The notes under the pieces: model-generated | Told to the model about the DNA's origin: nothing | Database searches by the model: none | Seen by the model: the letters and a program-made list of their open reading frames with translations, nothing else | Program-made: the position numbers and the translations under genes | Shown here: positions 24,001-50,744 of the stretch, one piece after another | Position numbering within the stretch: the stretch's first letter is position 1 | Layout of the letters: each line of letters opens with the position of its first letter | NCBI GenBank assembly: GCA_032718475.1 | Contig: JAUCBJ010006518.1 | Location: forward strand, 10,339 to 74,338 | Reading direction: 5' to 3' | Length of the DNA: 64,000 nucleotides | From: Nemertoderma westbladi | Taxonomy: Eukaryota; Animalia; Xenacoelomorpha

Positions 24001-27000
24001 AAGAAATACAGGCGTTAATACAGGTTGGGAGCAAGGGAAAGAAATACAGGCGTTAATACAGGTAGGGAGCAAAGGAAAGAAATACAGGCGTTAATACAGG
24101 TAGGGAGCAAGGGAAAGAAATACAGGCGTTAATACAGGTAGGGAGCAAGGGAAAGAAATACAGGCGTTAATACAGGTAGGGAGCAAGGGAAAGAAATACA
24201 GGCGTTAATACAGGTAGGGAGCAAGGGAAAGAAATACAGGCGTTAATACAGGTAGGGAGCAAGGGGAAGAAATACAGGCGTTAATACAGGTAGGGAGCAA
24301 GGGAAAGAAATACAGGCGTTAATATAGGTAGGGAGCAAGGGAAAGAAATACAGGCGTTAATACAGGTAGGGTGCAAGGGAAAGAAATACAGGCGTTAATA
24401 CAGGTAGGGAGCAAGGGAAAGAAATACAGGCGTTAATACAGGTAGGGAGCAAGGGGAAGAAATACAGGCGTTAATACAGGTTGGGAGCAAGGGAAAGAAA
24501 TACAGGCGTTAATACAGGTAGGGAGCAAGGGGAAGAAATACAGGCGTTGATACAGATAGGGAGCAAGGGAAAGAAATACAAGCGTTAATACAGGTAGGGA
24601 GCAAAGGAAAGAAATACAGGCGTTAATACAGGTAGGGAGCAAGGGGAAGAAATACAGGCGTTAATACAGGTTGGGAGCAAGGGAAAGAAATACAGGCGTT
24701 AATACAGGTAGGGAGCAAGGGGAAGAAATACAGGCGTTGATACAGGTAGGGAGCAAGGGAAAGAAATACAGGCGTTAATACAGGTAGGGAGCAAAGGAAA
24801 GAAATACAGGCGGTAATACAGGTAGGGAGCAAGGGGAAGAAATACAGGCGTTAATACAGGTTGGGAGCAAGGGAAAGAAATACAGGCGTTAATACAGGTA
24901 GGGAGCAAGGGAAAGAAATACAGGCGTTAATACAGGTAGGGAGCAAGGGAAAGAAATACAGGCGTTAATACAGGTAGGGAGCAAGGGAAATAAATATAGG
25001 CGTTAATACAGGTAGGGAGCAAAGGAAAGAAATACAGGCGTTAATACAGGTAGGGAGCAAGGGAAAGAAATACAGGCGTTGATACAGGTAGGGAGCAAGG
25101 GAAAGAAATACAGGCGTTAATACAGGTAGGGAGCAAGGGAAAGAAATACAGGCGTTAATACAGGTAGGGAGCAAGGGAAAGAAAAAATACAGGCGTTAAT
25201 ACAGGTAGGGATGGAAGCAAGGGAAAGAAATACAGCTGAGTTAATACAGGTAGGGAGCAAGGGAAAGAAATACAGGCGTTAATACAGGTAGGGAGCAAGG
25301 GAAAGAAATACAGGCGTTAATACAGGTAGGGAGCAAGGGAAAGAAATACAGGCGTTAATACAGGTAGGGAGCAAGGGAAAGAAAAAATACAGGCGTTAAT
25401 ACAGGTAGGGATGGAAGCAAGGGAAAGAAATACAGCTGAGTTAATACAGGTAGGGAGCAAGGGAAAGAAATACAGGCGTTAATACAGGTAGGGAGCAAGG
25501 GAAAGAAATACAGGCGTTAATACAGGTAGGGAGCAAGGGAAAGAAAAAATACAGGCGTTAATACAGGTAGGGAGCAAGGGAAAGAAATACAGGCGTTAAT
25601 ACAGGTAGGGAGCAAGGGAAAGAAAAAATACAGGCGTTAATACAGGTAGGGAGCAAAGGAAAGAAATACAGGCGTTAATACAGGTAGGGAGCAAGAGAAA
25701 GAAATACAGGCGTTAATACAGGTAGGGAGCAAGGGAAAGAAAAAATACAGGCGTTAATACAGGTAGGGATGGAAGCAAGGGAAAGAAATACAGGAGTTAA
25801 TACAGGTAGGGAGCAAGGGAAAGAAATACAGGCGTTAATACAGGTAGGGATCAAGGGAAAGAAATACAGGCGTTAATACAGGTAGGGAGCAAGGGAAAGA
25901 AAAAATACAGGCGTTAATACAGGTAGGGATGGAAGCAAGGGAAAGAAATACAGGAGTTAATACAGGTAGGGAGCAAGGGAAAGAAATACAGGCGTTAATA
26001 CAGGTAGGGAGCAAGGGAAAGAAATACAGGCGTTAATACAGGTAGGGAGCAAGGGAAAGAAAAAATACAGGCGTTAATACAGGTAGGGATGGAAGCAAGG
26101 GAAAGAAATACAGCAGTTAATACAGGTAGGGAGCAAGGGAAAGAAATACAGGCGTTAATACAGGTAGGGAGCAAGGGAAAGAAATACAGGCGTTAATACA
26201 GGTAGGGAGCAAGGGAAAGAAAAATACAGGCGTTAATACAGGTAGGGAGCAAGGGAAAGAAATACAGGCGTTAATACAGGTAGGGAGCAAGGGAAAGAAA
26301 TACAGGCGTTAATACAGGTAGGGAGCAAGGGAAAGAAAAAATACAGGCGTTAATACAGGTAGGGATGGAAGCAAGGGAAAGAAATACAGGAGTTAATACA
26401 GGTAGGGAGCAAGGGAAAGAAATACAGGCGTTAATACAGGTAGGGAGCAAGGGAAAGAAATACAGGCGTTAATACAGGTAGGGAGCAAGGGAAAGAAAAA
26501 TACAGGCGTTAATACAGGTAGGGAGCAAGGGAAAGAAATACAGGCGTTAATACAGGTAGGGAGCAAGGGAAAGAAATACAGGCGTTAATACAGGTAGGGA
26601 GCAAGGGAAAGAAATACAGGCGTTAATACAGGTAGGGAGCAAGGGAAAGAAAAAATACAGGCGTTAATACAGGTAGGGAGCAAGGGAAAGAAATACAGGC
26701 GTTAATACAGGTAGGGAGCAAGGGAAAGAAATACAGGCGTTAATACAGGTAGGGAGCAAGGGAAAGAAATACAGGCGTTAATACAGGTAGGGAGCAAGGG
26801 AAAGAAATACAGGCGTTAATACAGGTAGGGAGCAAGGGAAAGAAATACAGGCGTTAATACAGGTAGGGAGCAAGGGAAAGAAATACAGGCGTTAATACAG
26901 GTAGGGAGCAAGGGAAAGAAATACAGGCGTTAATACAGGTAGGGAGCAAGGGAAAGAAATACAGGCGTTAATACAGGTAGGGAGCAAGGGAAAGAAATAC

Positions 27001-30000
27001 AGGCGTTAATACAGGTAGGGAGCAAGGGAAAGAAATACAGGCGTTAATACAGGTAGGGAGCAAGGGAAAGAAAAAATACAGGCGTTAATACAGGTAGGGA
27101 GCAAGGGAAAGAAATACAGGCGTTAATACAGGTAGGGAGCAAGGGAAAGAAATACAGGCGTTAATACAGGTAGGGAGCAAGGGAAAGAAATACAGGCGTT
27201 AATACAGGTAGGGAGCAAGGGAAAGAAATACAGGCGTTAATACAGGTAGGGAGCAAGGGAAAGAAATACAGGCGTTAATACAGGTAGGGAGCAAGGGAAA
27301 GAAATACAGGCGTTAATACAGGTAGGGAGCAAGGGAAAGAAATACAGGCGTTAATACAGGTAGGGAGCAAGGGAAAGAAATACAGGCGTTAATACAGGTA
27401 GGGAGCAAGGGAAAGAAATACAGGCGTTAATACAGGTAGGGAGCAAGGGAAAGAAATACAGGCGTTAATACAGGTAGGGAGCAAGGGAAAGAAATACAGG
27501 CGTTAATACAGGTAGGGAGCAAGGGAAAGAAATACAGGCGTTAATACAGGTAGGGAGCAAGGGAAAGAAATACAGGCGTTAATACAGGTAGGGAGCAAGG
27601 GAAAGAAATACAGGCGTTAATACAGGTAGGGAGCAAGGGAAAGAAATACAGGCGTTAATACAGGTAGGGAGCAAGGGAAAGAAATACAGGCGTTAATACA
27701 GGTAGGGAGCAAGGGAAAGAAATACAGGCGTTAATACAGGTAGGGAGCAAGGGAAAGAAATACAGGCGTTAATACAGGTAGGGAGCAAGGGAAAGAAATA
27801 CAGGCGTTAATACAGGTAGGGAGCAAGGGAAAGAAATACAGGCGTTAATACAGGTAGGGAGCAAGGGAAAGAAATACAGGCGTTAATACAGGTAGGGAGC
27901 AAGGGAAAGAAATACAGGCGTTAATACAGGTAGGGAGCAAGGGAAAGAAATACAGGCGTTAATACAGGTAGGGAGCAAGGGAAAGAAATACAGGCGTTAA
28001 TACAGGTAGGGAGCAAGGGAAAGAAATACAGGCGTTAATACAGGTAGGGAGCAAGGGAAAGAAATACAGGCGTTAATACAGGTAGGGAGCAAGGGAAAGA
28101 AATACAGGCGTTAATACAGGTAGGGAGCAAGGGAAAGAAATACAGGCGTTAATACAGGTAGGGAGCAAGGGAAAGAAATACAGGCGTTAATACAGGTAGG
28201 GAGCAAGGGAAAGAAATACAGGCGTTAATACAGGTAGGGAGCAAGGGAAAGAAAATACAGGCGTTAATACAGGTAGGGAGCAAGGGAAAGAAATACAGGC
28301 GTTAATACAGGTAGGGAGCAAGGGAAAGAAATACAGGCGTTAATACAGGTAGGGAGCAAGGGAAAGAAATACAGGCGTTAATACAGGTAGGGAGCAAGGG
28401 AAAGAAATACAGGCGTTAATACAGGTAGGGAGCAAGGGAAAGAAAATACAGGCGTTAATACAGGTAGGGAGCAAGGGAAAGAAATACAGGCGTTAATACA
28501 GGTAGGGAGCAAGGGAAAGAAATACAGGCGTTAATACAGGTAGGGAGCAAGGGAAAGAAATACAGGCGTTAATACAGGTAGGGAGCAAGGGAAAGAAATA
28601 CAGGCGTTAATACAGGTAGGGAGCAAGGGAAAGAAAAATACAGGCGTTAATACAGGTAGGGAGCAAGGGAAAGAAATACAGGCGTTAATACAGGTAGGGA
28701 GCAAGGGAAAGAAATACAGGCGTTAATACAGGTAGGGAGCAAGGGAAAGAAATACAGGCGTTAATACAGGTAGGGAGCAAGGGAAAGAAATACAGGCGTT
28801 AATACAGGTAGGGAGCAAGGGAAAGAAATACAGGCGTTAATACAGGTAGGGAGCAAGGGAAAGAAATACAGGCGTTAATACAGGTAGGGAGCAAGGGAAA
28901 GAAATACAGGCGTTAATACAGGTAGGGAGCAAGGGAAAGAAATACAGGCGTTAATACAGGTAGGGAGCAAGGGAAAGAAATACAGGCGTTAATACAGGTA
29001 GGGAGCAAGGGAAAGAAATACAGGCGTTAATACAGGTAGGGAGCAAGGGAAAGAAATACAGGCGTTAATACAGGTAGGGAGCAAGGGAAAGAAATACAGG
29101 CGTTAATACAGGTAGGGAGCAAGGGAAAGAAATACAGGCGTTAATACAGGTAGGGAGCAAGGGAAAGAAATACAGGCGTTAATACAGGTAGGGAGCAAGG
29201 GAAAGAAATACAGGCGTTAATACAGGTAGGGAGCAAGGGAAAGAAATACAGGCGTTAATACAGGTAGGGAGCAAGGGAAAGAAATACAGGCGTTAATACA
29301 GGTAGGGAGCAAGGGAAAGAAATACAGGCGTTAATACAGGTAGGGAGCAAGGGAAAGAAATACAGGCGTTAATACAGGTAGGGAGCAAGGGAAAGAAATA
29401 CAGGCGTTAATACAGGTAGGGAGCAAGGGAAAGAAATACAGGCGTTAATACAGGTAGGGAGCAAGGGAAAGAAATACAGGCGTTAATACAGGTAGGGAGC
29501 AAGGGAAAGAAATACAGGCGTTAATACAGGTAGGGAGCAAGGGAAAGAAATACAGGCGTTAATACAGGTAGGGAGCAAGGGAAAGAAATACAGGCGTTAA
29601 TACAGGTAGGGAGCAAGGGAAAGAAATACAGGCGTTAATACAGGTAGGGAGCAAGGGAAAGAAATACAGGCGTTAATACAGGTAGGGAGCAAGGGAAAGA
29701 AATACAGGCGTTAATACAGGTAGGGAGCAAGGGAAAGAAAAAATACAGGCGTTAATACAGGTAGGGAGCAAGGGAAAGAAATACAGGCGTTAATACAGGT
29801 AGGGAGCAAGGGAAAGAAAAAATACAGGCGTTAATACAGGTAGGGAGCAAGGGAAAGAAATACAGGCGTTAATACAGGTAGGGAGCAAGGGAAAGAAATA
29901 CAGGCGTTAATACAGGTAGGGAGCAAGGGAAAGAAATACAGGCGTTAATACAGGTAGGGAGCAAGGGAAAGAAAAAATACAGGCGTTAATACAGGTAGGG

Positions 30001-33000
30001 AGCAAGGGAAAGAAATACAGGCGTTAATACAGGTAGGGAGCAAGGGAAAGAAATACAGGCGTTAATACAGGTAGGGAGCAAGGGAAAGAAATACAGGCGT
30101 TAATACAGGTAGGGAGCAAGGGAAAGAAAATACAGGCGTTAATACAGGTAGGGAGCAAGGGAAAGAAATACAGGCGTTAATACAGGTAGGGAGCAAGGGA
30201 AAGAAATACAGGCGTTAATACAGGTAGGGAGCAAGGGAAAGAAATACAGGCGTTAATACAGGTAGGGAGCAAGGGAAAGAAATACAGGCGTTAATACAGG
30301 TAGGGAGCAAGGGAAAGAAATACAGGCGTTAATACAGGTAGGGAGCAAGGGAAAGAAATACAGGCGTTAATACAGGTAGGGAGCAAGGGAAAGAAATACA
30401 GGCGTTAATACAGGTAGGGAGCAAGGGAAAGAAATACAGGCGTTAATACAGGTAGGGAGCAAGGGAAAGAAATACAGGCGTTAATACAGGTAGGGAGCAA
30501 GGGAAAGAAATACAGGCGTTAATACAGGTAGGGAGCAAGGGAAAGAAATACAGGCGTTAATACAGGTAGGGAGCAAGGGAAAGAAATACAGGCGTTAATA
30601 CAGGTAGGGAGCAAGGGAAAGAAATACAGGCGTTAATACAGGTAGGGAGCAAGGGAAAGAAAAATACAGGCGTTAATACAGGTAGGGAGCAAGGGAAAGA
30701 AATACAGGCGTTAATACAGGTAGGGAGCAAGGGAAAGAAATACAGGCGTTAATACAGGTAGGGAGCAAGGGAAAGAAATACAGGCGTTAATACAGGTAGG
30801 GAGCAAGGGAAAGAAATACAGGCGTTAATACAGGTAGGGAGCAAGGGAAAGAAATACAGGCGTTAATACAGGTAGGGAGCAAGGGAAAGAAATACAGGCG
30901 TTAATACAGGTAGGGAGCAAGGGAAAGAAATACAGGCGTTAATACAGGTAGGGAGCAAGGGAAAGAAATACAGGCGTTAATACAGGTAGGGAGCAAGGGA
31001 AAGAAAAATACAGGCGTTAATACAGGTAGGGAGCAAGGGAAAGAAATACAGGCGTTAATACAGGTAGGGAGCAAGGGAAAGAAATACAGGCGTTAATACA
31101 GGTAGGGAGCAAGGGAAAGAAATACAGGCGTTAATACAGGTAGGGAGCAAGGGAAAGAAATACAGGCGTTAATACAGGTAGGGAGCAAGGGAAAGAAATA
31201 CAGGCGTTAATACAGGTAGGGAGCAAGGGAAAGAAATACAGGCGTTAATACAGGTAGGGAGCAAGGGAAAGAAATACAGGCGTTAATACAGGTAGGGAGC
31301 AAGGGAAAGAAAATACAGGCGTTAATACAGGTAGGGAGCAAGGGAAAGAAATACAGGCGTTAATACAGGTAGGGAGCAAGGGAAAGAAATACAGGCGTTA
31401 ATACAGGTAGGGAGCAAGGGAAAGAAATACAGGCGTTAATACAGGTAGGGAGCAAGGGAAAGAAATACAGGCGTTAATACAGGTAGGGAGCAAGGGAAAG
31501 AAATACAGGCGTTAATACAGGTAGGGAGCAAGGGAAAGAAATACAGGCGTTAATACAGGTAGGGAGCAAGGGAAAGAAATACAGGCGTTAATACAGGTAG
31601 GGAGCAAGGGAAAGAAATACAGGCGTTAATACAGGTAGGGAGCAAGGGAAAGAAATACAGGCGTTAATACAGGTAGGGAGCAAGGGAAAGAAATACAGGC
31701 GTTAATACAGGTAGGGAGCAAGGGAAAGAAATACAGGCGTTAATACAGGTAGGGAGCAAGGGAAAGAAATACAGGCGTTAATACAGGTAGGGAGCAAGGG
31801 AAAGAAATACAGGCGTTAATACAGGTAGGGAGCAAGGGAAAGAAATACAGGCGTTAATACAGGTAGGGAGCAAGGGAAAGAAATACAGGCGTTAATACAG
31901 GTAGGGAGCAAGGGAAAGAAATACAGGCGTTAATACAGGTAGGGAGCAAGGGAAAGAAATACAGGCGTTAATACAGGTAGGGAGCAAGGGAAAGAAAAAA
32001 TACAGGCGTTAATACAGGTAGGGAGCAAGGGAAAGAAATACAGGCGTTAATACAGGTAGGGAGCAAGGGAAAGAAAAAGTACAGGCGTTAATACAGGTAG
32101 GGAGCAAGGGAAAGAAAAAATACAGGCGTTAATACAGGTAGGGAGCAAGGGAAAGAAATACAGGCGTTAATACAGGTAGGGAGCAAGGGAAAGAAATACA
32201 GGCGTTAATACAGGTAGGGAGCAAGGGAAAGAAAAAAGTACAGGCGTTAATACAGGTAGGGAGCAAGGGAAAGAAAAAAGTACAGGCGTTAATACAGGTA
32301 GGGAGCAAGGGAAAGAAAAAAGTACAGGCGTTAATACAGGTAGGGAGCAAGGGAAAGAAAAAAGTACAGGCGTTAATACAGGTAGGGAGCAAGGGAAAGA
32401 AAAAGTACAGGCGTTAATACAGGTAGGGAGCAAGGGAAAGAAATACAGGCGTTAATACAGGTAGGGAGCAAGGGAAAGAAATACAGGCGTTAATACAGGT
32501 AGGGAGCAAGGGAAAGAAATACAGGCGTTAATACAGGTAGGGAGCAAGGGAAAGAAATACAGGCGTTAATACAGGTAGGGAGCAAGGGAAAGAAATACAG
32601 GCGTTAATACAGGTAGGGAGCAAGGGAAAGAAATACAGGCGTTAATACAGGTAGGGAGCAAGGGAAAGAAATACAGGCGTTAATACAGGTAGGGAGCAAG
32701 GGAAAGAAAAAAGTACAGGCGTTAATACAGGTAGGGAGCAAGGGAAAGAAATACAGGCGTTAATACAGGTAGGGAGCAAGGGAAAGAAATACAGGCGTTA
32801 ATACAGGTAGGGAGCAAGGGAAAGAAATACAGGCGTTAATACAGGTAGGGAGCAAGGGAAAGAAAAGTACAGGCGTTAATACAGGTAGGGAGCAAGGGAA
32901 AGAAAAAAGTACAGGCGTTAATACAGGTAGGGAGCAAGGGAAAGAAAATACAGGCGTTAATACAGGTAGGGAGCAAGGGAAAGAAAATACAGGCGTTAAT

Positions 33001-36000
33001 ACAGGTAGGGAGCAAGGGAAAGAAAAAATACAGGCGTTAATACAGGTAGGGAGCAAGGGAAAGAAATACAGGCGTTAATACAGGTAGGGAGCAAGGGAAA
33101 GAAATACAGGCGTTAATACAGGTAGGGAGCAAGGGAAAGAAATACAGGCGTTAATACAGGTAGGGAGCAAGGGAAAGAAATACAGGCGTTAATACAGGTA
33201 GGGAGCAAGGGAAAGAAATACAGGCGTTAATACAGGTAGGGAGCAAGGGAAAGAAAATACAGGCGTTAATACAGGTAGGGAGCAAGGGAAAGAAATACAG
33301 GCGTTAATACAGGTAGGGAGCAAGGGAAAGAAATACAGGCGTTAATACAGGTAGGGAGCAAGGGAAAGAAAAATACAGGCGTTAATACAGGTAGGGAGCA
33401 AGGGAAAGAAAGTACAGGCGTTAATACAGGTAGGGAGCAAGGGAAAGAAATACAGGCGTTAATACAGGTAGGGAGCAAGGGAAAGAAAATACAGGCGTTA
33501 ATACAGGTAGGGAGCAAGGGAAAGAAAAAAGTACAGGCGTTAATACAGGTAGGGAGCAAGGGAAAGAAATACAGGCGTTAATACAGGTAGGGAGCAAGGG
33601 AAAGAAATACAGGCGTTAATACAGGTAGGGAGCAAGGGAAAGAAATACAGGCGTTAATATAGGTAGGGAGCAAGGGAAAGAAATACAGGCGTTAATACAG
33701 GTAGGGAGCAAGGGAAAGAAATACAGGCGTTAATACAGGTTGGGAGCAAGGGAAAGAAATACAGGCGTTAATACAGGTAGGGAGCAAGGGAAAGAAATAC
33801 AGGCGTTAATACAGGTAGGGAGCAAGGGAAAGAAATACAGGCGTTAATACAGGTAGGGAGCAAGGGAAAGAAATACAGGCGTTAATACAGGTAGGGAGCA
33901 AGGGAAAGAAAAAGTACAGGCGTTAATACAGGTAGGGAGCAAGGGAAAGAAATACAGGCGTTAATACAGGTAGGGAGCAAGGGAAAGAAATACAGGCGTT
34001 AATACAGGTAGGGAGCAAGGGAAAGAAATACAGGCGTTAATACAGGTAGGGAGCAAGGGAAAGAAAGTACAGGCGTTAATACAGGTAGGGAGCAAGGGAA
34101 AGAAAAAGTACAGGCGTTAATACAGGTAGGGAGCAAGGGAAAGAAAAAAGTACAGGCGTTAATACAGGTAGGGAGCAAGGGAAAGAAATACAGGCGTTAA
34201 TACAGGTAGGGAGCAAGGGAAAGAAATACAGGCGTTAATACAGGTAGGGAGCAAGGGAAAGAAATACAGGCGTTAATATAGGTAGGGAGCAAGGGAAAGA
34301 AATACAGGCGTTAATACAGGTAGGGAGCAAGGGAAAGAAATACAGGCGTTAATACAGGTTGGGAGCAAGGGAAAGAAAAAATACAGGCGTTAATACAGGT
34401 AGGGAGCAAAGGAAAGAAATACAGGCGTTAATACAGGTAGGGAGCAAGGGAAAGAAATACAGGCGTTAATACAGGTAGGGAGCAAGGGAAAGAAATACAG
34501 GCGTTAATACAGGTAGGGAGCAAGGGAAAGAAAAAATACAGGCGTTAATACAGGTAGGGAGCAAAGGAAAGAAATACAGGCGTTAATACAGGTAGGGAGC
34601 AAGGGAAAGAAATACAGGCGTTAATACAGGTAGGGAGCAAGGGAAAGAAATACAGGCGTTAATATAGGTAGGGAGCAAGAGAAAGAAATACAGGCGTTAA
34701 TACAGGTAGGGAGCAAAGGTACAGGTAGGGAGCAAAGGAAAGAAATACAGGCGTTAATACAGGTAGGGAGCAAGAGAAAGAAATACAGGCGTTAATACAG
34801 GTAGGGAGCAAGGGAAAGAAATACAGGCGTTAATACAGGTAGGGAGCAAGGGAAAGAAAAAATACAGGCGTTAATACAGGTAGGGAGCAAAGGAAAGAAA
34901 TACAGGCGTTAATACAGGTAGGGAGCAAGGGAAAGAAAAAATACAGGCGTTAATACAGGTAGGGAGCAAGGTAAAGAAATACAGGCGTTAATACAGGTTG
35001 GGAGCAAGGGAAAGAAATACAGGCGTTAATACAGGTAGGGAGCAAGGGAAAGAAAAAAGTACAGGCGTTAATACAGGTAGGGAGCAAAGGAAAGAAATAC
35101 AGGCGTTAATACAGGTAGGGAGCAAGGGAAAGAAATACAGGCGTTAATACAGGTAGGGAGCAAGGGAAAGAAATACAGGCGTTAATATAGGTAGGGAGCA
35201 AGGGAAAGAAATACAGGCGTTAATACAGGTAGGGAGCAAGGGAAAGAAATACAGGCGTTAATACAGGTATAGGGAGCAAAGGAAAGAAATATAGGCGTTA
35301 ATACAGGTAGGGAGTAAGGGAAAGAAATACAGGCGTTAATACAGGTAGGGAGCAAGGGAAAGAAATACAGGCGTTGATACAGATAGGGAGCAAGGGAAGG
35401 AAAGAAATACAGGCGTTAATACAGGTAGGGAGCAAGGGAAAGAAATACAGGCGTTAATACAGGTAGGGAGCAAGGGAAAGAAATACAGGCGTTAATACAG
35501 GTAGGGAGCAAGGGAAAGAAATTCAGGCGTTAATACAGGTTGGGAGCAAGGGAAAGAAATACAGGCGTTAATACAGGTAGGGAGCAAGGAAAAGAAATAC
35601 AGGCGTTAATACAGGTAGGGAGCAAGGGAAGGAAAGAAATACAAGCGTTAATACAGGTAGGGAGCAAGGGAAAGAAATACAGGCGTTAATACAGGTAGGG
35701 AGCAAGGGAAAGAAATTCAGGCGTTAATACAGGTAGGGAGCAAGGGAAAGAAATACAGGCGTTAATACAGGTAGGGAGCAAGGGAAAGAAATACAGGCGT
35801 TAATACAGGTAGGGAGCAAGGGAAATAAATACAGGCGTTAATACAGGTAGGGAGCAAGGGAAGGAAAGAAATACAAGCGTTAATACAGGTAGGGAGCAAG
35901 GGAAAGAAATACAGGCGTTAATACAGGTAGGGAGCAAGGGAAAGAAATACAGGCGTTAATACAGGTAGGGAGCAAGGGAAATAAATACAGGCGTTAATAC

Positions 36001-39000
36001 AGGTAGGGAGCAAGGGAAGGAAAGAAATACAAGCGTTAATACAGGTAGGGAGCAAGGGAAAGAAATACAGGCGTTAATACAGGTAGGGAGCAAGGGAAAG
36101 AAATTCAGGCGTTAATACAGGTAGGGAGCAAGGGAAGGAAAGAAATACAGGCGTTAATACAGGTAGGGAGCAAGGGAAAGAAATACAGGCGTTAATACAG
36201 GTAGGGAGCAAGGGAAAGAAAAAATACAGGCGTTAATACAGGTAGGGATGGAAGCAAGGGAAAGAAATACAGGCGTTAATACAGGTAGGGAGCAAGGAAA
36301 AGAAATACAGGCGTTAATACAGGTAGGGATGGAAGCAAGGGAAAGAAATACAGGCGTTAATACAGGTAAGGAGCAAGGGAAAGAAAAAAGTACAGGCGTT
36401 AATACAGGTAGGGATGGAAGCAAGGGAAAGAAATACAGGCGTTAATACAGGTAGGGAGCAAGGAAAGAAATACAGGCGTTAATACAGGTAGGGATGGAAG
36501 CAAGGGAAAGAAATACAGGCGTTAATACAGGTAGGGATGGAAGCAAGGGAAAGAAATACAGGCGTTAATACAGGTAGGGAGCAAGGGAAAGAAAAAATAC
36601 AGGCGTTAATACAGGTAGGGAGCAAGGGAAAGAAATACAGGCGTTAATACAGGTAGGGAGCAAGGAAAAGAAATACAGGCGTTAATACAGGTAGGGATGG
36701 AAGCAAGGGAAAGAAATACAGGCGTTAATACAGGTAGGGAGCAAGGGAAAGAAATACAGGCGTTAATACAGGTAGGGAGCAAGGGAAAGAAAAAATACAG
36801 GCGTTAATACAGGTAGGGATGGAAGCAAGGGAAAGAAATACAGGCGTTAATACAGGTAGGGAGCAAGGGAAAGAAATACAGGCGTTAATACAGGTAGGGA
36901 TGGAAGCAAGGGAAAGAAATACAGGCGTTAATACAGGTAGGGATGGAAGCAAGGGAAAGAAATACAGGCGTTAATACAGGTAGGGAGCAAGGGAAAGAAA
37001 AAATACAGGCGTTAATACAGGTAGGGAGCAAGGGAAAGAAAAAATACAGGCGTTAATACAGGTAGGGAGCAAGGGAAAGAAATACAGGCGTTAATACAGG
37101 TAGGGAGCAAGGGAAAGAAATACAGGCGTTAATACAGGTAGGGAGCAAGGGAAAGAAATACAGGCGTTAATACAGGTAGGGAGCAAGGGAAAGAAATACA
37201 GGCGTTAATACAGGTAGGGAGCAAGGGAAAGAAATACAGGCGTTAATACAGGTAGGGAGCAAGGGAAAGAAATACAGGCGTTAATAGAGGTAGGGAGCAA
37301 GGGAAAGAAATACAGGCGTTAATACAGGTAGGGAGCAAGGGAAAGAAAAAAGTACAGGCGTTAATACAGGTAGGGATGGAAGCAAGGGAAAGAAATACAG
37401 GCGTTAATACAGGTAGGGATGGAAGCAAGGGAAAGAAATACAGGCGTTAATACAGGTAGGGAGCAAGGGAAAGAAATACAGGCGTTAATACAGGTAGGGA
37501 GCAAGGGAAAGAAATACAAGCGTTAATACAGGTAGGGAGCAAGGGAAAGAAAAAATACAGGCGTTAATACAGGTAGGGAGCAAGGGAAAGAAATATAGGC
37601 GTTAATACAGGTAGGGAGCAAGGGAAAGAAATACAGGCGTTAATACAGGTAGGGAGCAAGGGAAAGAAATACAGGCGTTGATACAGATAGGGAGCAAGGG
37701 AAAGAAATACAAGCGTTAATACAGGTAGGGAGCAAGGGAAAGAAAAAATACAGGCGTTAATACAGGTAGGGAGCAAGGGAAAGAAAAAATACAGGCGTTA
37801 ATACAGGTAGGGATGGAAGCAAGGGAAAGAAATACAGGCGTTAATACAGGTAGGGAGCAAGGGAAAGAAATACAGGCGTTAATACAGGTAGGGAGCAAGG
37901 GAAAGAAATACAAGCGTTAATACAGGTAGGGAGCAAGGGAAAGAAAAAATACAGGCGTTAATACAGGTAGGGAGCAAGGGAAAGAAATACAGGCGTTAAT
38001 ACAGGTTGGGGAGCAAGGGAAAGAAATACAGGCGTTAATACAGGTAGGGAGCAAGGGAAAGAAATACAGGCGTTAATACAGGTAGGGAGCAAGGGAAAGA
38101 AAAAATACAGGCGTTAATACAGGTAGGGATGGAAGCAAGGGAAAGAAATACAGGCGTTAATACAGGTAGGGAGCAAGGGAAAGAAATACAGGCGTTAATA
38201 CAGGTAGGGAGCAAGGGAAAGAAATACAAGCGTTAATACAGGTAGGGAGCAAGGGAAAGAAAAAATACAGGCGTTAATACAGGTAGGGAGCAAGGGAAAG
38301 AAATACAGGCGTTAATACAGGTTGGGAGCAAGGGAAAGAAATACAGGCGTTAATACAGGTAGGGAGCAAGGGAAAGAAATACAGGCGTTAATACAGGTAG
38401 GGAGCAAGGGAAGGAAAGAAATTCAGGCGTTAATACAGGTAGGGAGCAAGGGAAAGAAATACAGGCGTTAATACAGGTAGGGAGCAAGGGGAGGAAAAAA
38501 ATTCAGGCATTAATACATGGTACTAAGAAACAATAATGGTACTAACAAACAATAATGGTACTAACAAACAATAATGGTACTAACAAACAATAATGGTACT
38601 AACAAACAATAATGGTACTAATAAACAATAATGGTACTAATAAACAATAATGGTACTAACAAACAATAATGGTACTAATAAACAATAATGGTACTAACAA
38701 ACAATAATGGTACTAACAAACAAAAATGGTACTAACAAACAATAATGGTACTAACAAACAATAATGGTACTAACAAACAATAATGGTACTAATAAACAAT
38801 AATGGTACTAATAAACAATAATGGTACTAACAAACAATAATGGTACTAACAAACAATAATGGTACTAATAAACAATAATGGTACTAATAAACAATAATGG
38901 TACTAACAAACAATAATGGTACTAACAAACAATAATGGTACTAACAAACAATAATGGTACTAACAAACAATAATGGTACTAACAAACAATAATGGTACTA

Positions 39001-42000
39001 ATAAACAATAATGGTACTAACAAACAATAATGGTACTAACAAACAATGATGGTACTATAACAAACAATAATGGTATTAACAAACAATAATGGTACTAACA
39101 AACAATAATGGTACTAACAAACAATAATGGTACTAACAAACAATAATGAAACAATAATGGTACTAAGAAACAGATGGTACTATAACAAACAATAATGGTA
39201 GTAACAAACAATAATGGTACTAACAAACAATAATGGTACTGACAGACAATAATGGTACTAACAAACAATAATGGTACTAACAAACAATAATGGTACAAAC
39301 AGACAATAATGTTACTAACAAACAATAATGGTACTAACAAACAATAATGGTACAAACAGACAATAATGGTACTAACAAACAATAATGGTATTAACAAACA
39401 ATAATGGTACAAACAGACAATAATGGTACTAACAAACAATAATGGTACTAACAAACAATAATGGTACTAATAAACAATAATGGTACTAAGTAACAATAAT
39501 GGTACTAACAAACAATAATGGTACTAACAAACAATAATGGTACTAACAAACAATAATGGTACTAACAAACAATAATGGTACTAACAAACAATGATGGTAC
39601 TAACAGACAATAATGGTACTAACAAACAATAATGGTACTAACAAACAATAATGGTACTAACAAACAATAATGGTACTAACAAACAATGATGGTACTAACA
39701 GACAATAATGGTACTAACAAACAATAATGGTACTATAACAAACAATAATGGTACTAACAAACAATAATGGTACTAACAAACAATAATGGTACTAACAAAC
39801 AATAATGGTACTATAACAAACAATAATGGTATTAACAAACAATAATGGTACTAACAAACAATAATGGTACTAACAAACAATAATGGTACTAACAAACAAT
39901 AATGGTACTAACAAACAATAATGGTACTAACAAACAATAATGGTACTATAACAAACAATAATGGTATTAACAAACAATAATGGTACTAACAAACAATGGT
40001 GGTACTAACAGACAATAATGGTACTAACAAACAATAATGGTACTAACAAACAATAATGGTACTAACAAACAATAATGGTACTAACAAACAATAATGGTAC
40101 TAACAAACAATAATGGTACTAACAAACAATAATGGTACTATAACAAACAATAATGGTATTAACAAACAATAATGGTACTAACAAACAATAATGGTAATAA
40201 CAAACAATAATGGTACTAATAAACAATAATGGTACTAACAAACAATAATGGTACTAACAAACAATGATGGTACTAACAAACAATAATGGTACTAACAAAC
40301 AATAATGGTACTAACAAACAATAATGGTACTAACAAACAATGATGGTACTATAACAAACAATAATGGTATTAACAAACAATAATGGTACTAACAAACAAT
40401 AATGGTACTAACAAACAATAATGGTACTAACAAACAATAATGGTACTAACAAACAATAATGGTACTAACAAACAATAATGGTAATAACAAACAATAATGG
40501 TACTATCAAACAATAATGGTACTAACAAACAATGATGGTACTAACAAACAATAATTGTACTAACAAACAATAATGGTACTAACAAACAATAATGGTACTA
40601 ACAAACAATGATGGTACTATAACAAACAATAATGGTATTAACAAACAATAATGGTACTAACAAACAATAATGGTACTAACAAACAATAATGGTACTAACA
40701 AACAATAATGGTACTAACAAACAATAATGGTACTAACAAACAATGATGGTACTAACAAACAATAATGGTACTAACAAACAATAATGGTAATAACAAACAA
40801 TAATGGTACTATCAAACAATAATGGTACTAACAAACAATGATGGTACTAACAAACAATAATTGTACTAACAAACAATAATGGTACTAACAAACAATAATT
40901 GTACTAACAAACAATAATGGTACTAACAAACAATAATGGTACTAACAAACAATAATGGTATTAACAAACAATAATGGTACTATCAACCAATAATTTTATT
41001 TATTTATTTTAATGCAACAACATTAGCCAATCAAGGCTTTAGCTGGATATTGACCGACAAACAACCAACAACAACCAACATTGTTCAATGAACATATAGC
41101 ATATTCTTATGCACCGGTTAAGATATTTGGCGCCTTTAAAAATGTAACAAAATCTGCGCAAATATACCACTATATAACAGCTAAAGGGAAAGCAAACTAA
41201 AGTTGCAACGTGGTAAAATAAAAATACCAAACCAACCCAGCGCTTATTATTTGTAAAGTAGCATTTGTAATAAAAATTAGTCCAACAAATTATTAGGCGT
41301 ACTACAAAAATTGAACGTAACAACGTTTTTAGAGAATATAAACTATAATTACTTTTTTATTTTATTTACTCTGATTACTTTTTACCATAGGATAAAAGTG
41401 ACCTGGATAAAAAGAAGAAGAATTACGAAGTTCAACTGCAAGATATACAGTCTCGTCTGGGCGTCTCTGAGAAGGCAAAGGCCGATCTGGAAGTCAGGGT
41501 ATCTAGGCAACAGACTGAAATCGAGGCGTCATTGGCCCAATTAGAGAAAGAAGAAAGTATGATAGCCGTCTTACAGAGAACCAATACCACGTTAGTAATT
41601 TAGTTTTGGTTAGTTAGTTAGACTGTTTGTTAGCTATAGTTAATCAGGTAGAATAATCTCCGAAATTACCCAAAACTTATAAGATTATGACTTAGTTAGT
41701 AGTCAGACATGGCTGTGATAGGCTTAGGATTACAAGATCATAATATCCTCTATACGTTCTAGTCGTACTCAAGGATTTATTAACTCGAGGATTTATTAAC
41801 TCAAGGATTTATTAACTCAAGGATTTATTAACTCAAGGATTTATTAACTCAAGGATTTATTAACTCGAGGATTTATTAACTCGAGGATTTATTAACTCGA
41901 GGATTTATTAACTCGAGGATTTATTAACTCAAGGATTTATTAACTCAAGGATTTATTAACTCAAGGATTTATTAACTCAAGGATTTATTAACTCGAGGAT

Positions 42001-48000: not shown

Positions 48001-50744
48001 ATCCAAGAGAAAATTACAGAGGGAGTTGGATGACGTTACCGAACAGAATGACACGTTACAGAGAGAAGTTACAACTCTACGTAGCAAAGCCAGGTTGGTT
48101 GATTTCAAATATAGTGATATATAGATAGAATACAACGCTAACTACACTAACCAAATCACACTAGGTATGTTACTTCTAGCTATGCTACCACTAACTGCCC
48201 TAAGTATGCTACCACAACTAACTACTAGAGTTGAAACAGAGACTTGTAACTGTTCTCTGATCTCTGGATTCTCCGGGCTAGTTTTTGGTCTCCGGATAGG
48301 TCTCTGGTTCCCGGGTATTGAAAACAGACATTTTACCCAGAGATCAGTGATTTGACAAATTAGAAATATATTTTTAAAAATAGATCCTGTACAACACAAA
48401 ATGTGAAATGAAGATAATTTTTCACAAATTTTTTACAATTATTTGTTTAATTTTTAACTATTTTACTTACCCCACTTCAACACAATTATGTATTCACTTT
48501 TACACTATTTCTAATAAATGTACCGATAATCTTTTATTTAATTAATTTAAGGTGCGTTTAATTTTAATTTAAATTAGCACCTAAAGATGGTTCTTATTTA
48601 AGGATTAAGGGCGCTTAATTTGAGCACTCATAAAGTTTAATAGTGAAAGAAAGGGCTGTTCTCCATTCAATTTGTTATAGGATAGATAATATGAAGACCA
48701 AATGGAGAGAACGAGCGTAACGAGGCTTGTAAATGGGGCCAGTATAGAGCACTATACCTGTGCACTAAGTATTCGTAAATGACTAAGTTTATAGTATATT
48801 GAAATGTATATGATTTGAACAATTGTAAAATAAATGCCTTTAATTAACAAAGTACCGGTACCTATGGCGCAAAACAAAATTATGTTACATATTATTAACA
48901 ATAACAAAATAAGAACGAATTAATAAACAAATAACCAAATTAATATTAATTAAGCCCCCCAAACTGTACGTGCACTTATTTTCTTACAATGGGTAAGGGT
49001 TGAAATGGGTTGGATTTACTTTACTGTAATTGAACCATAGAAAAATAGTTCTAAGGCCGTATGTACCTGTTTGTGTTATAGGGGAGTAATCAAATTGTAA
49101 GTAGAAAAATAAGCAAAGTCTCTGATCTCCGGCTCTGGTCTCCGGTATTTTTCAAAATAATTCTCCGGGTAGGGCTCTGGTTCACCGGGATTAAGAAAAA
49201 CAGGTCTCTGTTGCAACTCTACTAACTACACTAGTTGTGCTATTACTAACCACACTAGCTATGCTACCACTAACCACACTAGCTATGCTACCACTAACCA
49301 CACTAGCTATGCTACACTAACCACACTAGCTATGCTACCACTAACCACACTAGCTATGCTACCATTAACCACACTAGCTTTGCTACCACTAACCACACTA
49401 GCTATGCTACCACTAACAACACTAGCTATGCTCCCGCTAACCACACTAGCTATGCTACACTAACCACACTAGCTATGATACCACTAACCACACTAGATCT
49501 GCTACCACTAACCACGCTAGCTATGCTCCCGCTAACCACACTAGCTATGCTGCACTAACCACACTAGCTATGCTACCACTAACCACACTAGCTCTGCTAC
49601 CACTAACCACGCTAGCTATGCTACCACTAACCACACTAGCTATGCTACCACTAACCACACTAGCTATGCTACCACTAACCACGCTAGCTATGCTACCACT
49701 AACCACACTAGCTATGCTACCACTAACCATACTAGCTATGCTACCACTAACCACACTAGCTTTGCTACCACTAACCACACTAGCTATGCTAGCACTAACC
49801 ACACTAGCTTTGCTACCACTAACAACACTAGCTATGCTCCCGCTAACCACACTAGCTATGCTACACTAACCACACTAGCTATGCTACCACTAACCACACT
49901 AGCTCTGCTACCACTAACCACGCTAGCTATGGTACCACTAACCACACTAGCTATGCTACCATTAGCCACACTATATATGCTCCCGCTAACCACACTAGCT
50001 AAGATACTACTAACCACACTAGCTATGTTACCACTAACAACACTAGTTATGCTACCACTAACAACACTAGTTATGCTACCACTAACAACACTAGCTATGC
50101 TCCCGCTAACCACACTAGCTATGCTACACTAACCACACTAGCTATGCTACCACTAACCGCACTATCTATGCTACCACTAACCACACTAGCTATGCTACCA
50201 TTAACCACACTAGCTATGCTACCACTAACCACACTAGCTATGCTACCACTAACCACACTGGCTATGCTACCACTAACCACACTAGCTATGCTATAACTAA
50301 CCACACTAGCTATGCTACCACTAACCACACTAGCTATGCTACCACTAACCACACTGGCTATGCTACCACTAACCGCACTAGCTATGCTACCATTAACCAC
50401 ACTAGTTATGCTACCACTAACCGCACTAGCTATGCTACCACTAACCACACTAGTTATGCTACCACTAACCGCACTAGCTATGCTACCACTAACCGCACTA
50501 GCTATGCTACCACTAACCACACTAGTTATGCTACCACTAACCGCACTAGCTATGCTACCATTAACCACACTGGCTATGCTACCACTAATCGCACTAGCTA
50601 TGCTCCCACTAACCGCACGTTGTGTGTATCCTTTCTAGGGGCGGCGGCGGCAGGTCCGCTCCATCTCGATCCTACGCTCCTCGACGCACCGCCGCTGCAG
50701 ACACCGGCGACGGTGGGGACACACCCGACGGTGACGAAGATTAG
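1..50744 (+). CDS. MYH9/10: Myosin II heavy chain, non-muscle type (MYH9/MYH10/zipper-like); 3' part of gene, 15 coding exons, 5' end lies outside the window
   Basis: Exons 1-63, 577-984, 1389-1560, 12235-12359, 41391-41590, 42700-42880, 43973-44182, 44557-44662, 44831-44976, 45554-45929, 46457-46584, 46977-47167, 47257-47596, 47921-48093 and 50639-50744 are all GT-AG. Phases are compatible and they sum to 2925 nt (974 aa + stop). Hallmark rod motifs include [53 protein letters not shown] and [10 protein letters not shown] short acidic non-helical tailpiece ends the protein. Confidence 0.95.
577..984 (+). CDS. MYH9/10: Myosin II exon [13 protein letters not shown]...KQKRSIAE
   Basis: Poly-T tract + AAG acceptor; GTTAGT donor at 985; heptad coiled coil. 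Confidence 0.93.
979..1040 (+). repeat. Degenerate 15-bp tandem repeat (~4 copies, GCCGAG|GTTAGTGAG) spanning the exon-end/donor junction
   Basis: gccgaggttagtgag gccgaagtttgtgag gccgagcttagtaag gccgaggtttcagtaag. Confidence 0.7.
1389..1560 (+). CDS. MYH9/10: Myosin II exon [10 protein letters not shown]...EARQKYNK
   Basis: TAG acceptor at 1388, GTTAGT donor at 1561, phase 1. Confidence 0.92.
1795..2470. mobile_element. Foldback/MITE-like element with ~75-bp inverted arms enclosing a 17-bp minisatellite
   Basis: 1795-1870 (GTTTATTGTTTTGGTTCCCCCAACACGCCTCTGTAAC...) is the reverse complement of 2399-2470. A weaker outer inverted repeat lies at ~1730-1760 / ~2502-2540. No TSD identified. Confidence 0.65.
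1965..2392 (+). repeat. 17-bp tandem repeat (TAGGTCCCAAAGAGCGT) x ~25
   Basis: Directly visible; about 3 inverted partial copies (TAACGCTCTTTGGGA) at 1888-1938. Confidence 0.95.
2922..3844 (-). CDS. Nested HDO gene terminal exon ([12 protein letters not shown]...LEALQQ*)
   Basis: TTTTGTTTCGCGCAG acceptor, phase matches exon 3; ORF 2922..3857; AATAAA on minus strand at 2832-2827. Confidence 0.88.
2922..9461 (-). CDS. Nested antisense gene: heme-oxygenase-like diiron oxidase (AetD/BesC-type HDO) with duplicated domain, 529 aa, 4 coding exons
   Basis: Exons 9461-9167, 8770-8632, 8348-8116 and 3844-2922 are GT-AG with phases 1/2/1 and total 1590 nt with no internal stop. Motifs: [11 protein letters not shown]...[28 protein letters not shown]. 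Family assignment comes from recalled similarity to AetD-like proteins, not from a search. Confidence 0.85.
4163..8150 (-). repeat. 48-bp minisatellite (~83 copies) made of the last ~34 nt of HDO exon 3 plus its donor site
   Basis: Minus-strand unit GGCCACATACACGGGGATGAATTGTTCCACCAAG|GTAGGTGAGGAACG; the first copy is the coding exon end ([11 protein letters not shown]). Confidence 0.97.
8116..8348 (-). CDS. Nested HDO gene exon 3 (KLKRGVYHL...IEATE...[19 protein letters not shown])
   Basis: TTAG acceptor, AAG|GTAGGT donor, phase 1; corresponds to ORF 8108..8347. Confidence 0.88.
8632..8770 (-). CDS. Nested HDO gene exon 2 ([46 protein letters not shown])
   Basis: TTTCAG acceptor, GTTAGT donor; open in the required phase; absent from the supplied ORF track. 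Confidence 0.85.
9167..9461 (-). CDS. Nested HDO gene coding exon 1 ([15 protein letters not shown]...LGVYQT)
   Basis: ATG at 9461, preceded by an acceptor-like AAG/CAG (probable 5'UTR intron); donor CAG|GTTGGT, phase 1. Confidence 0.8.
10126..10202 (+). repeat. (GTC/GTT)n microsatellite
   Basis: Directly visible. Confidence 0.95.
10322..11560 (+). repeat. ~146-bp satellite subunits arranged as a 292-bp dimer (3 near-identical dimers plus ~3 diverged monomers)
   Basis: CCGCTAGAGGG recurs at 10328, 10473, 10620, 10765, 10912, 11057, 11204, 11360 and 11509. Confidence 0.92.
10328..11521 (+). promoter_or_regulatory. Cluster of 9 co-oriented CTCF-like motifs (CCGCTAGAGGGC)
   Basis: Matches the CTCF core CCRSYAGRKGGC (last copy has one mismatch). 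Three copies have CTGCAGTTCT starting 18 bp upstream, resembling the CTCF upstream motif. Binding is not demonstrable from sequence. Confidence 0.5.
12185..12207. repeat. (TA)n microsatellite
   Basis: Directly visible, just upstream of a myosin acceptor. Confidence 0.9.
12235..12359 (+). CDS. MYH9/10: Myosin II exon (M)[41 protein letters not shown]
   Basis: TTTTAG acceptor; CAG|GTAGGG donor; phase 1 in, phase 0 out. Confidence 0.92.
12326..38518 (+). repeat. 38-bp satellite, ~26.2 kb, ~680 copies; unit = last 34 nt of the myosin exon + GTAG
   Basis: Unit GGAGCAAGGGAAAGAAATACAGGCGTTAATACAG|GTAG; the first copy encodes [11 protein letters not shown]. Confidence 0.98.
38518..40995 (+). repeat. 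19-bp minisatellite (TGGTACTAACAAACAATAA) x ~130
   Basis: Directly visible; abuts the 38-bp array; consensus contains TACTAAC. Confidence 0.97.
41391..41590 (+). CDS. MYH9/10: Myosin II exon [18 protein letters not shown]...LQRTNT
   Basis: Long T-rich tract + TAG acceptor; GTTAGT donor, phase 2. Confidence 0.92.
41767..42153 (+). repeat. 16-bp tandem repeat (ACTCAAGGATTTATTA) x ~24
   Basis: Directly visible; two variants (A/G). Confidence 0.96.
42700..42880 (+). CDS. MYH9/10: Myosin II exon [20 protein letters not shown]...TLQQQ
   Basis: CAG acceptor, CAG|GTAGGA donor. Confidence 0.93.
42885..43638 (+). repeat. Dispersed direct repeat of ~170-200 bp (42885-43057 and 43436-43638)
   Basis: GAGTGAGTGAAAATAAAGCCACGAGGATCAGAACACTGTAAAGTACTTTG... 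occurs twice. Confidence 0.85.
43973..44182 (+). CDS. MYH9/10: Myosin II exon [11 protein letters not shown]...DHQRGK
   Basis: CAG acceptor, AAG|GTATCT donor. Confidence 0.93.
44557..44662 (+). CDS. MYH9/10: Myosin II exon [19 protein letters not shown]...CQSD
   Basis: TAG acceptor, GTAAGT donor; conserved EKKQRKFD. Confidence 0.94.
44831..44976 (+). CDS. MYH9/10: Myosin II exon (V)RQKDTQ...SSKDDAGKN
   Basis: TAG acceptor, GTAGGT donor. Confidence 0.94.
44927..45427 (+). repeat. 63-bp tandem repeat x8: last 50 nt of exon + first 13 nt of intron
   Basis: AGAACGAGTACGATAGTCTAATATCGAGCAAGGACGACGCCGGGAAAAAT|GTAGGTTAAATGT. Confidence 0.97.
45554..45929 (+). CDS. MYH9/10: Myosin II exon VHELERAKR...RQYRKIS
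   Basis: TTTTAG acceptor, GTAAGT donor. Confidence 0.95.
46457..46584 (+). CDS. MYH9/10: Myosin II exon (G)[11 protein letters not shown]...KQLQD
   Basis: TTTCAG acceptor, GTTAGT donor. Confidence 0.93.
46977..47167 (+). CDS. MYH9/10: Myosin II exon [10 protein letters not shown]...SLFQE
   Basis: CAG acceptor, GTTAGA donor, phase 2. Confidence 0.92.
47257..47596 (+). CDS. MYH9/10: Myosin II exon (K)[11 protein letters not shown]...DVYKEQ
   Basis: CAG acceptor, CAG|GTAGGT donor. Confidence 0.94.
47921..48093 (+). CDS. MYH9/10: Myosin II exon [17 protein letters not shown]...TLRSKA
   Basis: TAG acceptor, CAG|GTTGGT donor. Confidence 0.93.
48226..49221. mobile_element. Non-autonomous hAT-type DNA transposon (MITE), 996 bp
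   Basis: 21-bp TIRs TAGAGTTGAAACAGAGACTTG / CAGGTCTCTGTTGCAACTCTA (2 mismatches); perfect 8-bp TSD CTAACTAC at 48218-48225 and 49222-49229; subterminal TCTCCGG/TCTCTGG repeats. Confidence 0.88.
49222..50618 (+). repeat. 24-bp minisatellite (CTAACCACACTAGCTATGCTACCA) x ~58; degenerate copies also at 48138-48225
   Basis: Directly visible; ends 20 nt before the last myosin acceptor. Confidence 0.96.
50639..50744 (+). CDS. MYH9/10: Myosin II terminal exon, non-helical tailpiece (R)[34 protein letters not shown]
   Basis: CCTTTCTAG acceptor, phase-2 match, TAG stop. Confidence 0.88.

What the first reader, a model, noticed from the sequence alone, without database searches (positions are those of the whole stretch)
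38518..40995. ~130 copies of the perfect branch-point heptamer TACTAAC directly after the donor satellite
Seen: the donor array switches with no spacer to a 19-mer, TGGTACTAACAAACAATAA, on the sense strand. The consensus contains TACTAAC and no AG, and the array ends ~400 nt before the real acceptor (41390). Knowledge: UACUAAC is the optimal U2-pairing branch site and the SF1/Quaking (STAR) binding motif; UACUAAC with a nearby UAAY half-site resembles a Quaking response element. Inference: the intron is laid out as a magnified intron, [donor]n-[branch point]n-acceptor, possibly compensatory or a STAR-protein landing pad.
Basis: partly seen in the sequence, partly recalled or inferred. Interest (0 to 1): 0.7.

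Follow-up and report, generated by a model that had tools for sequence, protein, structure and literature searches.

The report
Myosin intron minisatellite carrying branch-point motif
A 19-letter DNA unit repeated about 129 times inside a 29-kb intron of an animal myosin gene carries the textbook splicing branch-point word in 89 copies, but it lies too far from the splice site and is too freely mutated to be the working signal, so it is likely a passenger of a repeat expansion in a gene whose splice-site neighbourhoods are repeatedly amplified.

Summary
The array is real (38518-40995, 129 units, no spacer after the 38-mer donor array, ends 395 nt before the acceptor), but only 89 units carry TACTAAC and 12 AGs occur in it. 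It lies in intron 3 (12360-41390) of a non-muscle myosin II heavy-chain gene; one contig of run X5 joins an exon-3-type end to 41391. It fails as the working branch site: last heptamer 450 nt from the acceptor, 16 AGs between, no pyrimidine tract, and a normal candidate (CTCTGAT) sits at -20. The heptamer is no better conserved than the rest of the unit, broken variants were re-amplified, and five of its seven bases are predicted to pair. The 89 copies are one founder (about 0.3% per array by chance). The junction suggests the founder was the old intron start (G|GTACTAA); inferred only. What remains odd: four arrays in the window span donors, in each gene's direction, and a 24-mer array ends on intron 13's likely branch point. 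Splice-signal-seeded expansion is therefore possible (about 25%), but untestable without the genome. Precedents: F7 boundary VNTR; Gomafu UACUAAC repeats.

The parts
38518..40995 (+). 19-nt minisatellite, 129 units, 89 with TACTAAC; multi-unit blocks repeated (a pair of heptamer-broken variants 6 times, a 5-unit block twice)
38498..38527 (+). Junction: degenerate last 38-mer unit ends ...TTAATACA, then T, then GGTACTAAG; keeps the donor register (38-mer has AATACAG|GTAG). Inferred old donor or microhomology joint
   Evidence: sequence; alignment AATACAGGTA/AATAATGGTA (19-mer vs 38-mer overall not significant, p=0.83)
12322..38517 (+). 38-nt array (673.6 copies): last 38 nt of exon 3 plus donor; only the first donor keeps the frame open (1 of 658 donor-like sites)
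12235..12359 (+). Myosin exon 3 of the window, ends CAG|GTAGGG
12360..41390 (+). Intron 3, 29,031 nt, about 98% tandem array
   Evidence: contig join in run X5
41010..41209 (.). Dispersed repeat abutting the array through an AT-rich tract; several contigs with unlike flanks in 4 of 4 runs
   Evidence: tables 5, 7, 8
41369..41375 (+). Likely working branch site CTCTGAT, about 20 nt before the acceptor, followed by a T-rich tract (predicted, not mapped)
41391..41590 (+). Myosin exon 4; a contig of run X5 covers only this exon and joins it to an exon-3-type end and to exon 5 (42700)
49221..50618 (+). Comparison case: 24-nt array whose last unit holds CACTAAC 30 nt before the intron-13 acceptor (50638)

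Best explanation
The 19-mer array is an intronic minisatellite, likely grown from one local 19-nt founder by slippage and unequal exchange, and its TACTAAC is likely a passenger rather than a working or selected branch site. Shown: it lies in intron 3 of a myosin II gene that still gives an open 953-residue tail, and the intron is spliced to 41391. Inferred: the founder was the start of the ancestral intron (CAG|GTACTAAC...), left behind when the exon-end/donor 38-mer expanded upstream of it; splicing uses the first donor (as in human F7) and the local CTCTGAT site, so both arrays are tolerated.
For: 14 exons join to 953 codons with one terminal stop, 470 of 949 identical to P0001; Myosin_tail_1 in 3 of 3 exons scanned. 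One X5 contig covers exon 4 only and joins an exon-3-type end to 41391. Last TACTAAC is 450 nt from the acceptor with 16 AGs between array end and acceptor; distant branch points are marked by absence of AG (PMC1431707, abstract). Downstream of array heptamers pyrimidine fraction is 0.32 and T 0.17, against 0.53-0.88 and 0.41-0.71 at 14 of 14 real acceptors. 40 of 129 units lack the heptamer; 29 substitutions fall in its 7 sites against 24 in the other 12, plus a TA insertion in 8 units; 9 of 16 distinct changes lie inside (p=0.09 for excess, so no depletion); the two units nearest the acceptor are both broken. UGGUACUA of one unit is predicted to pair with that of another, leaving UACUA 84-100% paired. 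The junction keeps the donor register, and the 63-mer array likewise ends on a donor copy followed by unique intron.
Against: A founder holding exact sense TACTAAC is a 0.3% event per array, about 2% over eight arrays, and the old-donor origin does not remove that coincidence. Two of three short non-exonic arrays in the myosin introns carry sense ACTAAC (rough post-hoc p 2e-4; 6e-3 for CTAAY). GTACTA lacks the +5 G seen in 12 of 13 donors here. The 48-mer donor array ends mid-unit, not on a donor copy, so the junction register is not a general rule. The fold is not exceptional among tandem arrays: 87 of 1000 shuffled-unit arrays fold as well. No orthologous intron was seen, so the ancestral state is untested. 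The X5 join rests on one contig, and its 27 letters cannot tell which donor copy is used.
Confidence: 0.6

Rival explanations
1. Splice signals seed the expansions in this animal: repeats arise preferentially where the spliceosome engages nascent RNA (donors and branch points), and the 19-mer is the amplified branch point of a once short intron 3, later pushed away from the acceptor by insertions. Origin is biased; present function is not required.
For: Four arrays (15, 38, 63 nt on +; 48 nt on - in a nested gene) span a donor in the direction of their gene; rough p 4e-4 for 4 of 8. The 24-mer ends on CACTAAC at -30 of the intron-13 acceptor. A dispersed repeat sits between the 19-mer and the acceptor. 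A T-rich tract and an AG (41025) follow the array.
Against: Even without the dispersed repeat about 180 nt with 7 AGs remain before the acceptor. The gene's other introns show no strict branch consensus: exact sense TACTAAC once in 10,793 nt of unique intron. One window only; tests are post hoc; survival of harmless duplications can mimic a mutational bias. CTAAC is the reverse complement of GTTAG, the donor of 5 of 13 introns, so the motif can be read either way.
Confidence: 0.22
2. The array is a selected STAR-protein (SF1/Quaking) landing pad or decoy on the nascent myosin transcript, working like Gomafu, that tunes or rescues splicing of the giant intron.
For: 89 UACUAAC, 99 of 129 units with core plus half-site, against 3-8 copies in Gomafu, which binds SF1 and delays splicing in vitro (PMC3116199, sections 6, 8). 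Tandem ACUAAC lets QKI repress splicing (PMC13004596, passages). Satellite-filled giant introns need dedicated RNA-binding proteins in Drosophila (PMC6508613, part 1 of 2).
Against: Heptamer not spared from mutation and broken variants re-amplified; predicted pairing hides five of seven bases; the QKI/SF1 cases act 34-43 nt from the 3' splice site, not 450; an excised intron is short-lived, unlike Gomafu (established knowledge). No binding data exist.
Confidence: 0.08
3. The 19-mer belongs to a dispersed satellite or transposon-borne repeat family and was joined to the 38-mer array by microhomology (AATA..GGTA), on either strand at random.
For: Other arrays in the window sit inside inverted-repeat elements (17-mer within arms 1794-1856 and 2408-2470); a dispersed motif CTAACCAAAACAATAA resembles the unit (8 copies outside the array); a dispersed repeat abuts the array; X1 holds a unit variant absent from this array.
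Against: Best match of the 19-mer elsewhere in the window (score 29) is within the range of 40 shuffled units (23-31). At least one other copy of the adjoining repeat has a long contig flank (1,101 nt left over in X2 record 9), which a tandem array would break. The X1 variant can be an allele of this same array.
Confidence: 0.1

Closest known systems
Human F7 intron 7 37-bp VNTR (PMC1557585, abstract read)
   Same: Minisatellite whose first unit spans the exon-intron boundary, leaving many identical silent donors; the most upstream is used. Matches the 38-mer array next to this finding and explains why it is tolerated.
   Different: Here about 670 copies plus a second, different array; the 19-mer spans no active boundary; F7 abstract mentions no branch-point array.
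Gomafu/MIAT tandem UACUAAC repeats (PMC3116199, abstract and sections 6, 8)
   Same: Tandem UACUAAC in a transcript; could bind SF1 or Quaking.
   Different: Gomafu repeats are 3-7 per transcript, exonic in a stable nuclear RNA, kept across vertebrates and shown to bind SF1. Here 89 copies in an excised intron, with no conservation or binding data and free decay of the motif.
Distant branch points with AG exclusion zones (PMC1431707, abstract section)
   Same: Branch motif up to about 400 nt from the acceptor.
   Different: Those have an adjacent pyrimidine tract and no AG up to the acceptor; here 16 AGs and no tract.
Satellite-filled giant introns of Drosophila Y-loop genes (PMC6508613, part 1 of 2)
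   Same: Intron made almost wholly of tandem repeats and still spliced.
   Different: Those are up to megabases and testis-specific; this is 29 kb in a myosin gene, with units derived from local splice-site sequence.

Membership tests
Working U2 branch site of intron 3 | Match to the branch consensus on the sense strand | tested here: met
   89 TACTAAC
Working U2 branch site of intron 3 | Within about 40 nt of the acceptor, or distant with no AG in between | tested here: not met
   450 nt; 16 AGs between array end and acceptor; criterion from PMC1431707
Working U2 branch site of intron 3 | Followed by a pyrimidine tract | tested here: not met
   Y 0.32, T 0.17 after 89 heptamers against Y 0.53-0.88 at 14 acceptors
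Working U2 branch site of intron 3 | Lariat formation at the motif's A | not testable with these tools
   only contigs were available
Gomafu-type SF1/Quaking decoy | Tandem UACUAAC (or core plus UAAY half-site) in a transcript | tested here: met
   89 and 99 of 129 units, inside a spliced intron
Gomafu-type SF1/Quaking decoy | Motif kept while surrounding sequence diverges | tested here: not met
   within the array the heptamer varies at least as much as the rest; across species not testable
Gomafu-type SF1/Quaking decoy | Motif single-stranded and accessible | tested here: inconclusive
   UACUA predicted paired, branch A and C free; prediction only, and 87 of 1000 shuffled-unit arrays fold as well
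Gomafu-type SF1/Quaking decoy | Stable nuclear RNA that binds SF1/QKI | not testable with these tools
   no raw RNA reads or binding data
Exon-intron boundary VNTR (F7 type) | First unit spans the active donor | tested here: not met
   met by the 38-mer, not by the 19-mer, which lies 26 kb downstream; a former boundary is inferred only
Intronic minisatellite | Head-to-tail unit of 10-60 nt with interspersed variants and repeated multi-unit blocks | tested here: met
Intronic minisatellite | Length or unit polymorphism between individuals | tested here: inconclusive
   one X1 contig with a variant absent from the window; allele or second locus not separable

The most novel reading that the evidence does not exclude
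In this animal the splicing signals themselves seed satellite DNA: donors and branch points are amplified in place and in the direction of transcription (four donor arrays, the 24-mer ending on a branch point, and this 19-mer), so introns grow into magnified copies of their own signals, and the UACUAAC array becomes a by-product sink for SF1/Quaking on the nascent transcript.
Probability: 0.25. Interest if true: 0.7.

Novelty: new member of a known kind. Interest (0 to 1): 0.33.

Why it matters
As it stands it is an ordinary kind of repeat with an eye-catching word. It still shows that a 29-kb intron with about 660 spare donors and 89 optimal branch motifs is spliced to the right acceptor, a natural test case for first-donor choice and for acceptor-anchored branch selection. 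If the genome-wide test showed that arrays start at splice signals with sense bias, it would link spliceosome engagement to a mutational route for intron growth, which I did not find described in the searches made.

Tried and rejected
No whole genome is held, so the genome-wide strand test could not be run. No RNA holder was listed; X5 is labelled DNA? but its contig pattern is that of spliced RNA. Absence of contig cover over the array, the junction or the intron is no evidence (repeats skipped, records filtered; 7 loose-end rows dropped by the tool). A 24-nt pattern of the array found 0 stretches in metagenome contigs. Seven loci (41-45% identity over 51 residues of coiled coil) were judged chance or remote and not used. 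Protein search gave no close relative (29 hits, best 61%), so no orthologous intron. Derivation of the 19-mer from the 38-mer: not significant (p=0.83). Antisense-donor reading (the minus strand reads TTT|GTTAGTA, the donor of introns 2 and 4): no minus-strand exon is evident and the first two units in that direction lack GTTAG; not favoured. Pairing of array RNA with the gene's own donors: -2.3 kcal/mol for intron 3, at best -9.8 for others, no control run; rejected as weak. Intron gain by exon duplication: intron ends do not resemble the flanking exons. A first exon model with off-by-one boundaries had 28 stops and was corrected. Earlier findings: three look-ups returned nothing. Paper searches with no hit. 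Atlas search of the nested protein: no usable hit.
Full report
Observation. Tandem Repeats Finder gives a 19-nt array at 38512-40994, 130.3 copies, directly after a 38-nt array at 12322-38497; the sequence shows no spacer. Split by register there are 129 units, 70 of them the exact consensus; 89 contain TACTAAC and 99 ACTAAY. The array holds 12 AG dinucleotides although the consensus has none. So the position, strand and unit are right, and the count of perfect heptamers is overstated by about 40. The window-wide excess (103 against 16 in shuffles) only reflects amplification; the fair unit of chance is one founder, 0.29% for sense TACTAAC in a random circular 19-mer of unique window DNA.

Host gene. 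Three of three exons scanned match Pfam Myosin_tail_1; exon 1 is closest to myosin-9/10/11 among solved structures. Fourteen exons (577-50744) with GT-AG ends join to 953 codons with one terminal stop, 470 of 949 positions identical to a spider non-muscle myosin, P0001. The best database hit is 61% identical, so the animal has no close relative among the hits. Intron 3 runs 12360-41390. Only the first of 658 donor-like sites in the 38-mer array keeps the frame open, as expected if the most upstream donor is chosen, which is the published behaviour of the F7 boundary VNTR (PMC1557585, abstract). In run X5, labelled DNA? by the tool, one contig covers exon 4 only, continues into exon 5 and begins with 27 letters of the exon-3/38-mer end: the intron is spliced to 41391. 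Those letters cannot tell which donor copy is used.

Is the array the branch site? The last TACTAAC starts at 40940, 450 nt before the acceptor, and 16 AGs lie between the array end and the acceptor AG. Known distant branch points have no AG in that span (PMC1431707, abstract section). The 25 nt after the 89 heptamers are 32% pyrimidine and 17% T, against 53-88% and 41-71% at the 14 real acceptors. A normal candidate, CTCTGAT at 41369-41375, precedes a T-rich tract at the acceptor. The compensatory reading fails on these three counts; lariats could not be examined.

Is the heptamer selected? Among 117 units of 19 nt, 29 substitutions fall in the 7 heptamer sites and 24 in the other 12; 8 more units have a TA insertion inside it. 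The splitting rule fixes two heptamer sites, which biases towards conservation, yet none is seen. By distinct changes, 9 of 16 are inside (p=0.09 for excess). A pair of broken variants recurs 6 times and a block with two broken units twice; intact shares by third are 27, 31 and 31 of 43; the last two units are broken. Folding predicts an 8-bp UGGUACUA self-pair between units (-21.4 kcal/mol for six units, z -4.85 against dinucleotide shuffles), with UACUA paired and the branch A free. Against the fairer null of shuffled-unit arrays, 87 of 1000 fold as well, so the fold is a caution and no finding.

Origin. The last 38-mer unit ends TTAATACA, then T, then GGTACTAAG, in the register of AATACAG|GTAG. 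The simplest account is that the ancestral intron began CAG|GTACTAAC, that the 19 nt from the donor onward expanded, and that a duplication of the exon end at the shared GTA made the 38-mer and a new first donor. The 63-mer array ends the same way, on a donor copy followed by unique intron, but the 48-mer does not. GTACTA lacks the +5 G of 12 of 13 donors; the exception is AAG|GTATCT. A microhomology joint between two unrelated arrays gives the same junction. No ortholog could be read, so this step is inference, and it does not explain away the 0.3% coincidence.

Context that keeps a bolder reading alive. Arrays of 15, 38 and 63 nt span myosin donors on the plus strand, and a 48-nt array spans a donor-like site on the minus strand at the end of an open frame that joins in frame to a 315-codon frame across 4.3 kb (a nested gene, not confirmed by RNA). 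A rough model gives p 4e-4 for 4 of 8 arrays spanning a donor (the 17-mer, the GTC run and arrays beyond the myosin gene were left out). The 24-mer array in intron 13 ends on CACTAAC 30 nt before the acceptor. Two of three short non-exonic arrays (19, 16, 24 nt) carry sense ACTAAC, p 2e-4, or 6e-3 for CTAAY. These tests are post hoc and come from one window; the 17-mer left out has CTAAC on both strands of its element. Also CTAAC is the reverse complement of GTTAG, the donor of 5 of 13 introns, and two donors read TACTAAC on the minus strand, so the word is common currency in this genome. A survival filter (extra donors downstream and extra branch motifs upstream are harmless, extra acceptors are not) may account for part of the pattern; that is inference.

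Comparison. It works like an ordinary intronic minisatellite and meets that family's sequence features. It is not a member of the working or distant branch-point class (two defining features tested and not met). It resembles Gomafu/MIAT, whose 3-7 tandem UACUAAC bind SF1 and delay splicing in vitro (PMC3116199, abstract and sections 6, 8; also passages in PMC10950597), and the tandem ACUAAC elements 34-43 nt from an acceptor that QKI uses (PMC13004596, passages); binding here is possible but untested and motif conservation is not met. Tandem repeats that alter splicing are catalogued in humans (PMC10078293, passages), and satellite-filled introns in flies (PMC6508613, part 1 of 2). Searches combining satellite, branch point and TACTAAC, or repeats enriched near splice sites in invertebrates, gave 0 papers; two searches listed none on branch-point arrays (listings and abstract starts only).

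Verdict. Real array, overstated count, most likely a passenger motif (0.6). Seeded expansion at splice signals 0.22-0.25, selected STAR pad 0.08, dispersed family 0.1. Interest 0.33; the genome-wide strand and position test would settle whether it deserves 0.7.

Noticed in passing
window 979-1032, 12322-38497, 44923-45435 (+) and 4169-8149 (-): Four arrays are tandem copies of an exon end plus donor, each in its gene's direction: 3 of 13 myosin introns and one intron of a nested gene. Probably more interesting than the 19-mer itself.
   Followed up: partly
window 48138-48225 and 49221-50618: 24-nt ACTAAC array fills most of intron 13 and ends on the likely branch point at -30; it is split by an element of about 1 kb with 25-nt inverted ends at 48223-48247 and 49200-49224.
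   Followed up: partly
window 2922-9617, minus strand: Probable nested antisense gene in myosin intron 2 (open frames 9617-9093, 8371-8111, 3869-2925; the last two join in frame). No Pfam family for the 315-aa frame, a below-cutoff hit for the 175-aa frame, no Atlas hit. No RNA check.
   Followed up: partly
window 1794-2470; 57724-58303; also 46769, 56600, 59060: Foldback-like element with 63-nt inverted ends and an internal 17-nt array; its end motif (TTTATTGTTTTGGTT) recurs in a 68-nt array and as dispersed copies.
   Followed up: partly
window 41010-41209: Dispersed repeat next to the array; another copy lies on a deep contig of run X5 (41027-41061), so the family may be carried in transcripts.
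   Followed up: no
myosin donors, e.g. 985, 1561, 41591, 46585, 47168: GTTAG is the commonest donor (5 of 13), GTAAG only 2 of 13; +5 G in 12 of 13.
   Followed up: partly
window 41767-42153; 10323-11222: A 16-nt array in intron 4 (TATTAAC in the unit) and a 292-nt unit in 3.1 copies in intron 2, neither at a splice site.
   Followed up: no
window 59714-61177 and 62131-62793: Downstream open frames: a C2H2 zinc-finger protein with an in-frame 39-nt repeat, and a methyltransferase.
   Followed up: no
window about 55960-56520: Text resembling the 3' part of a decayed LINE (reverse-transcriptase tail-like peptides in broken frames; recalled resemblance, not tested).
   Followed up: no
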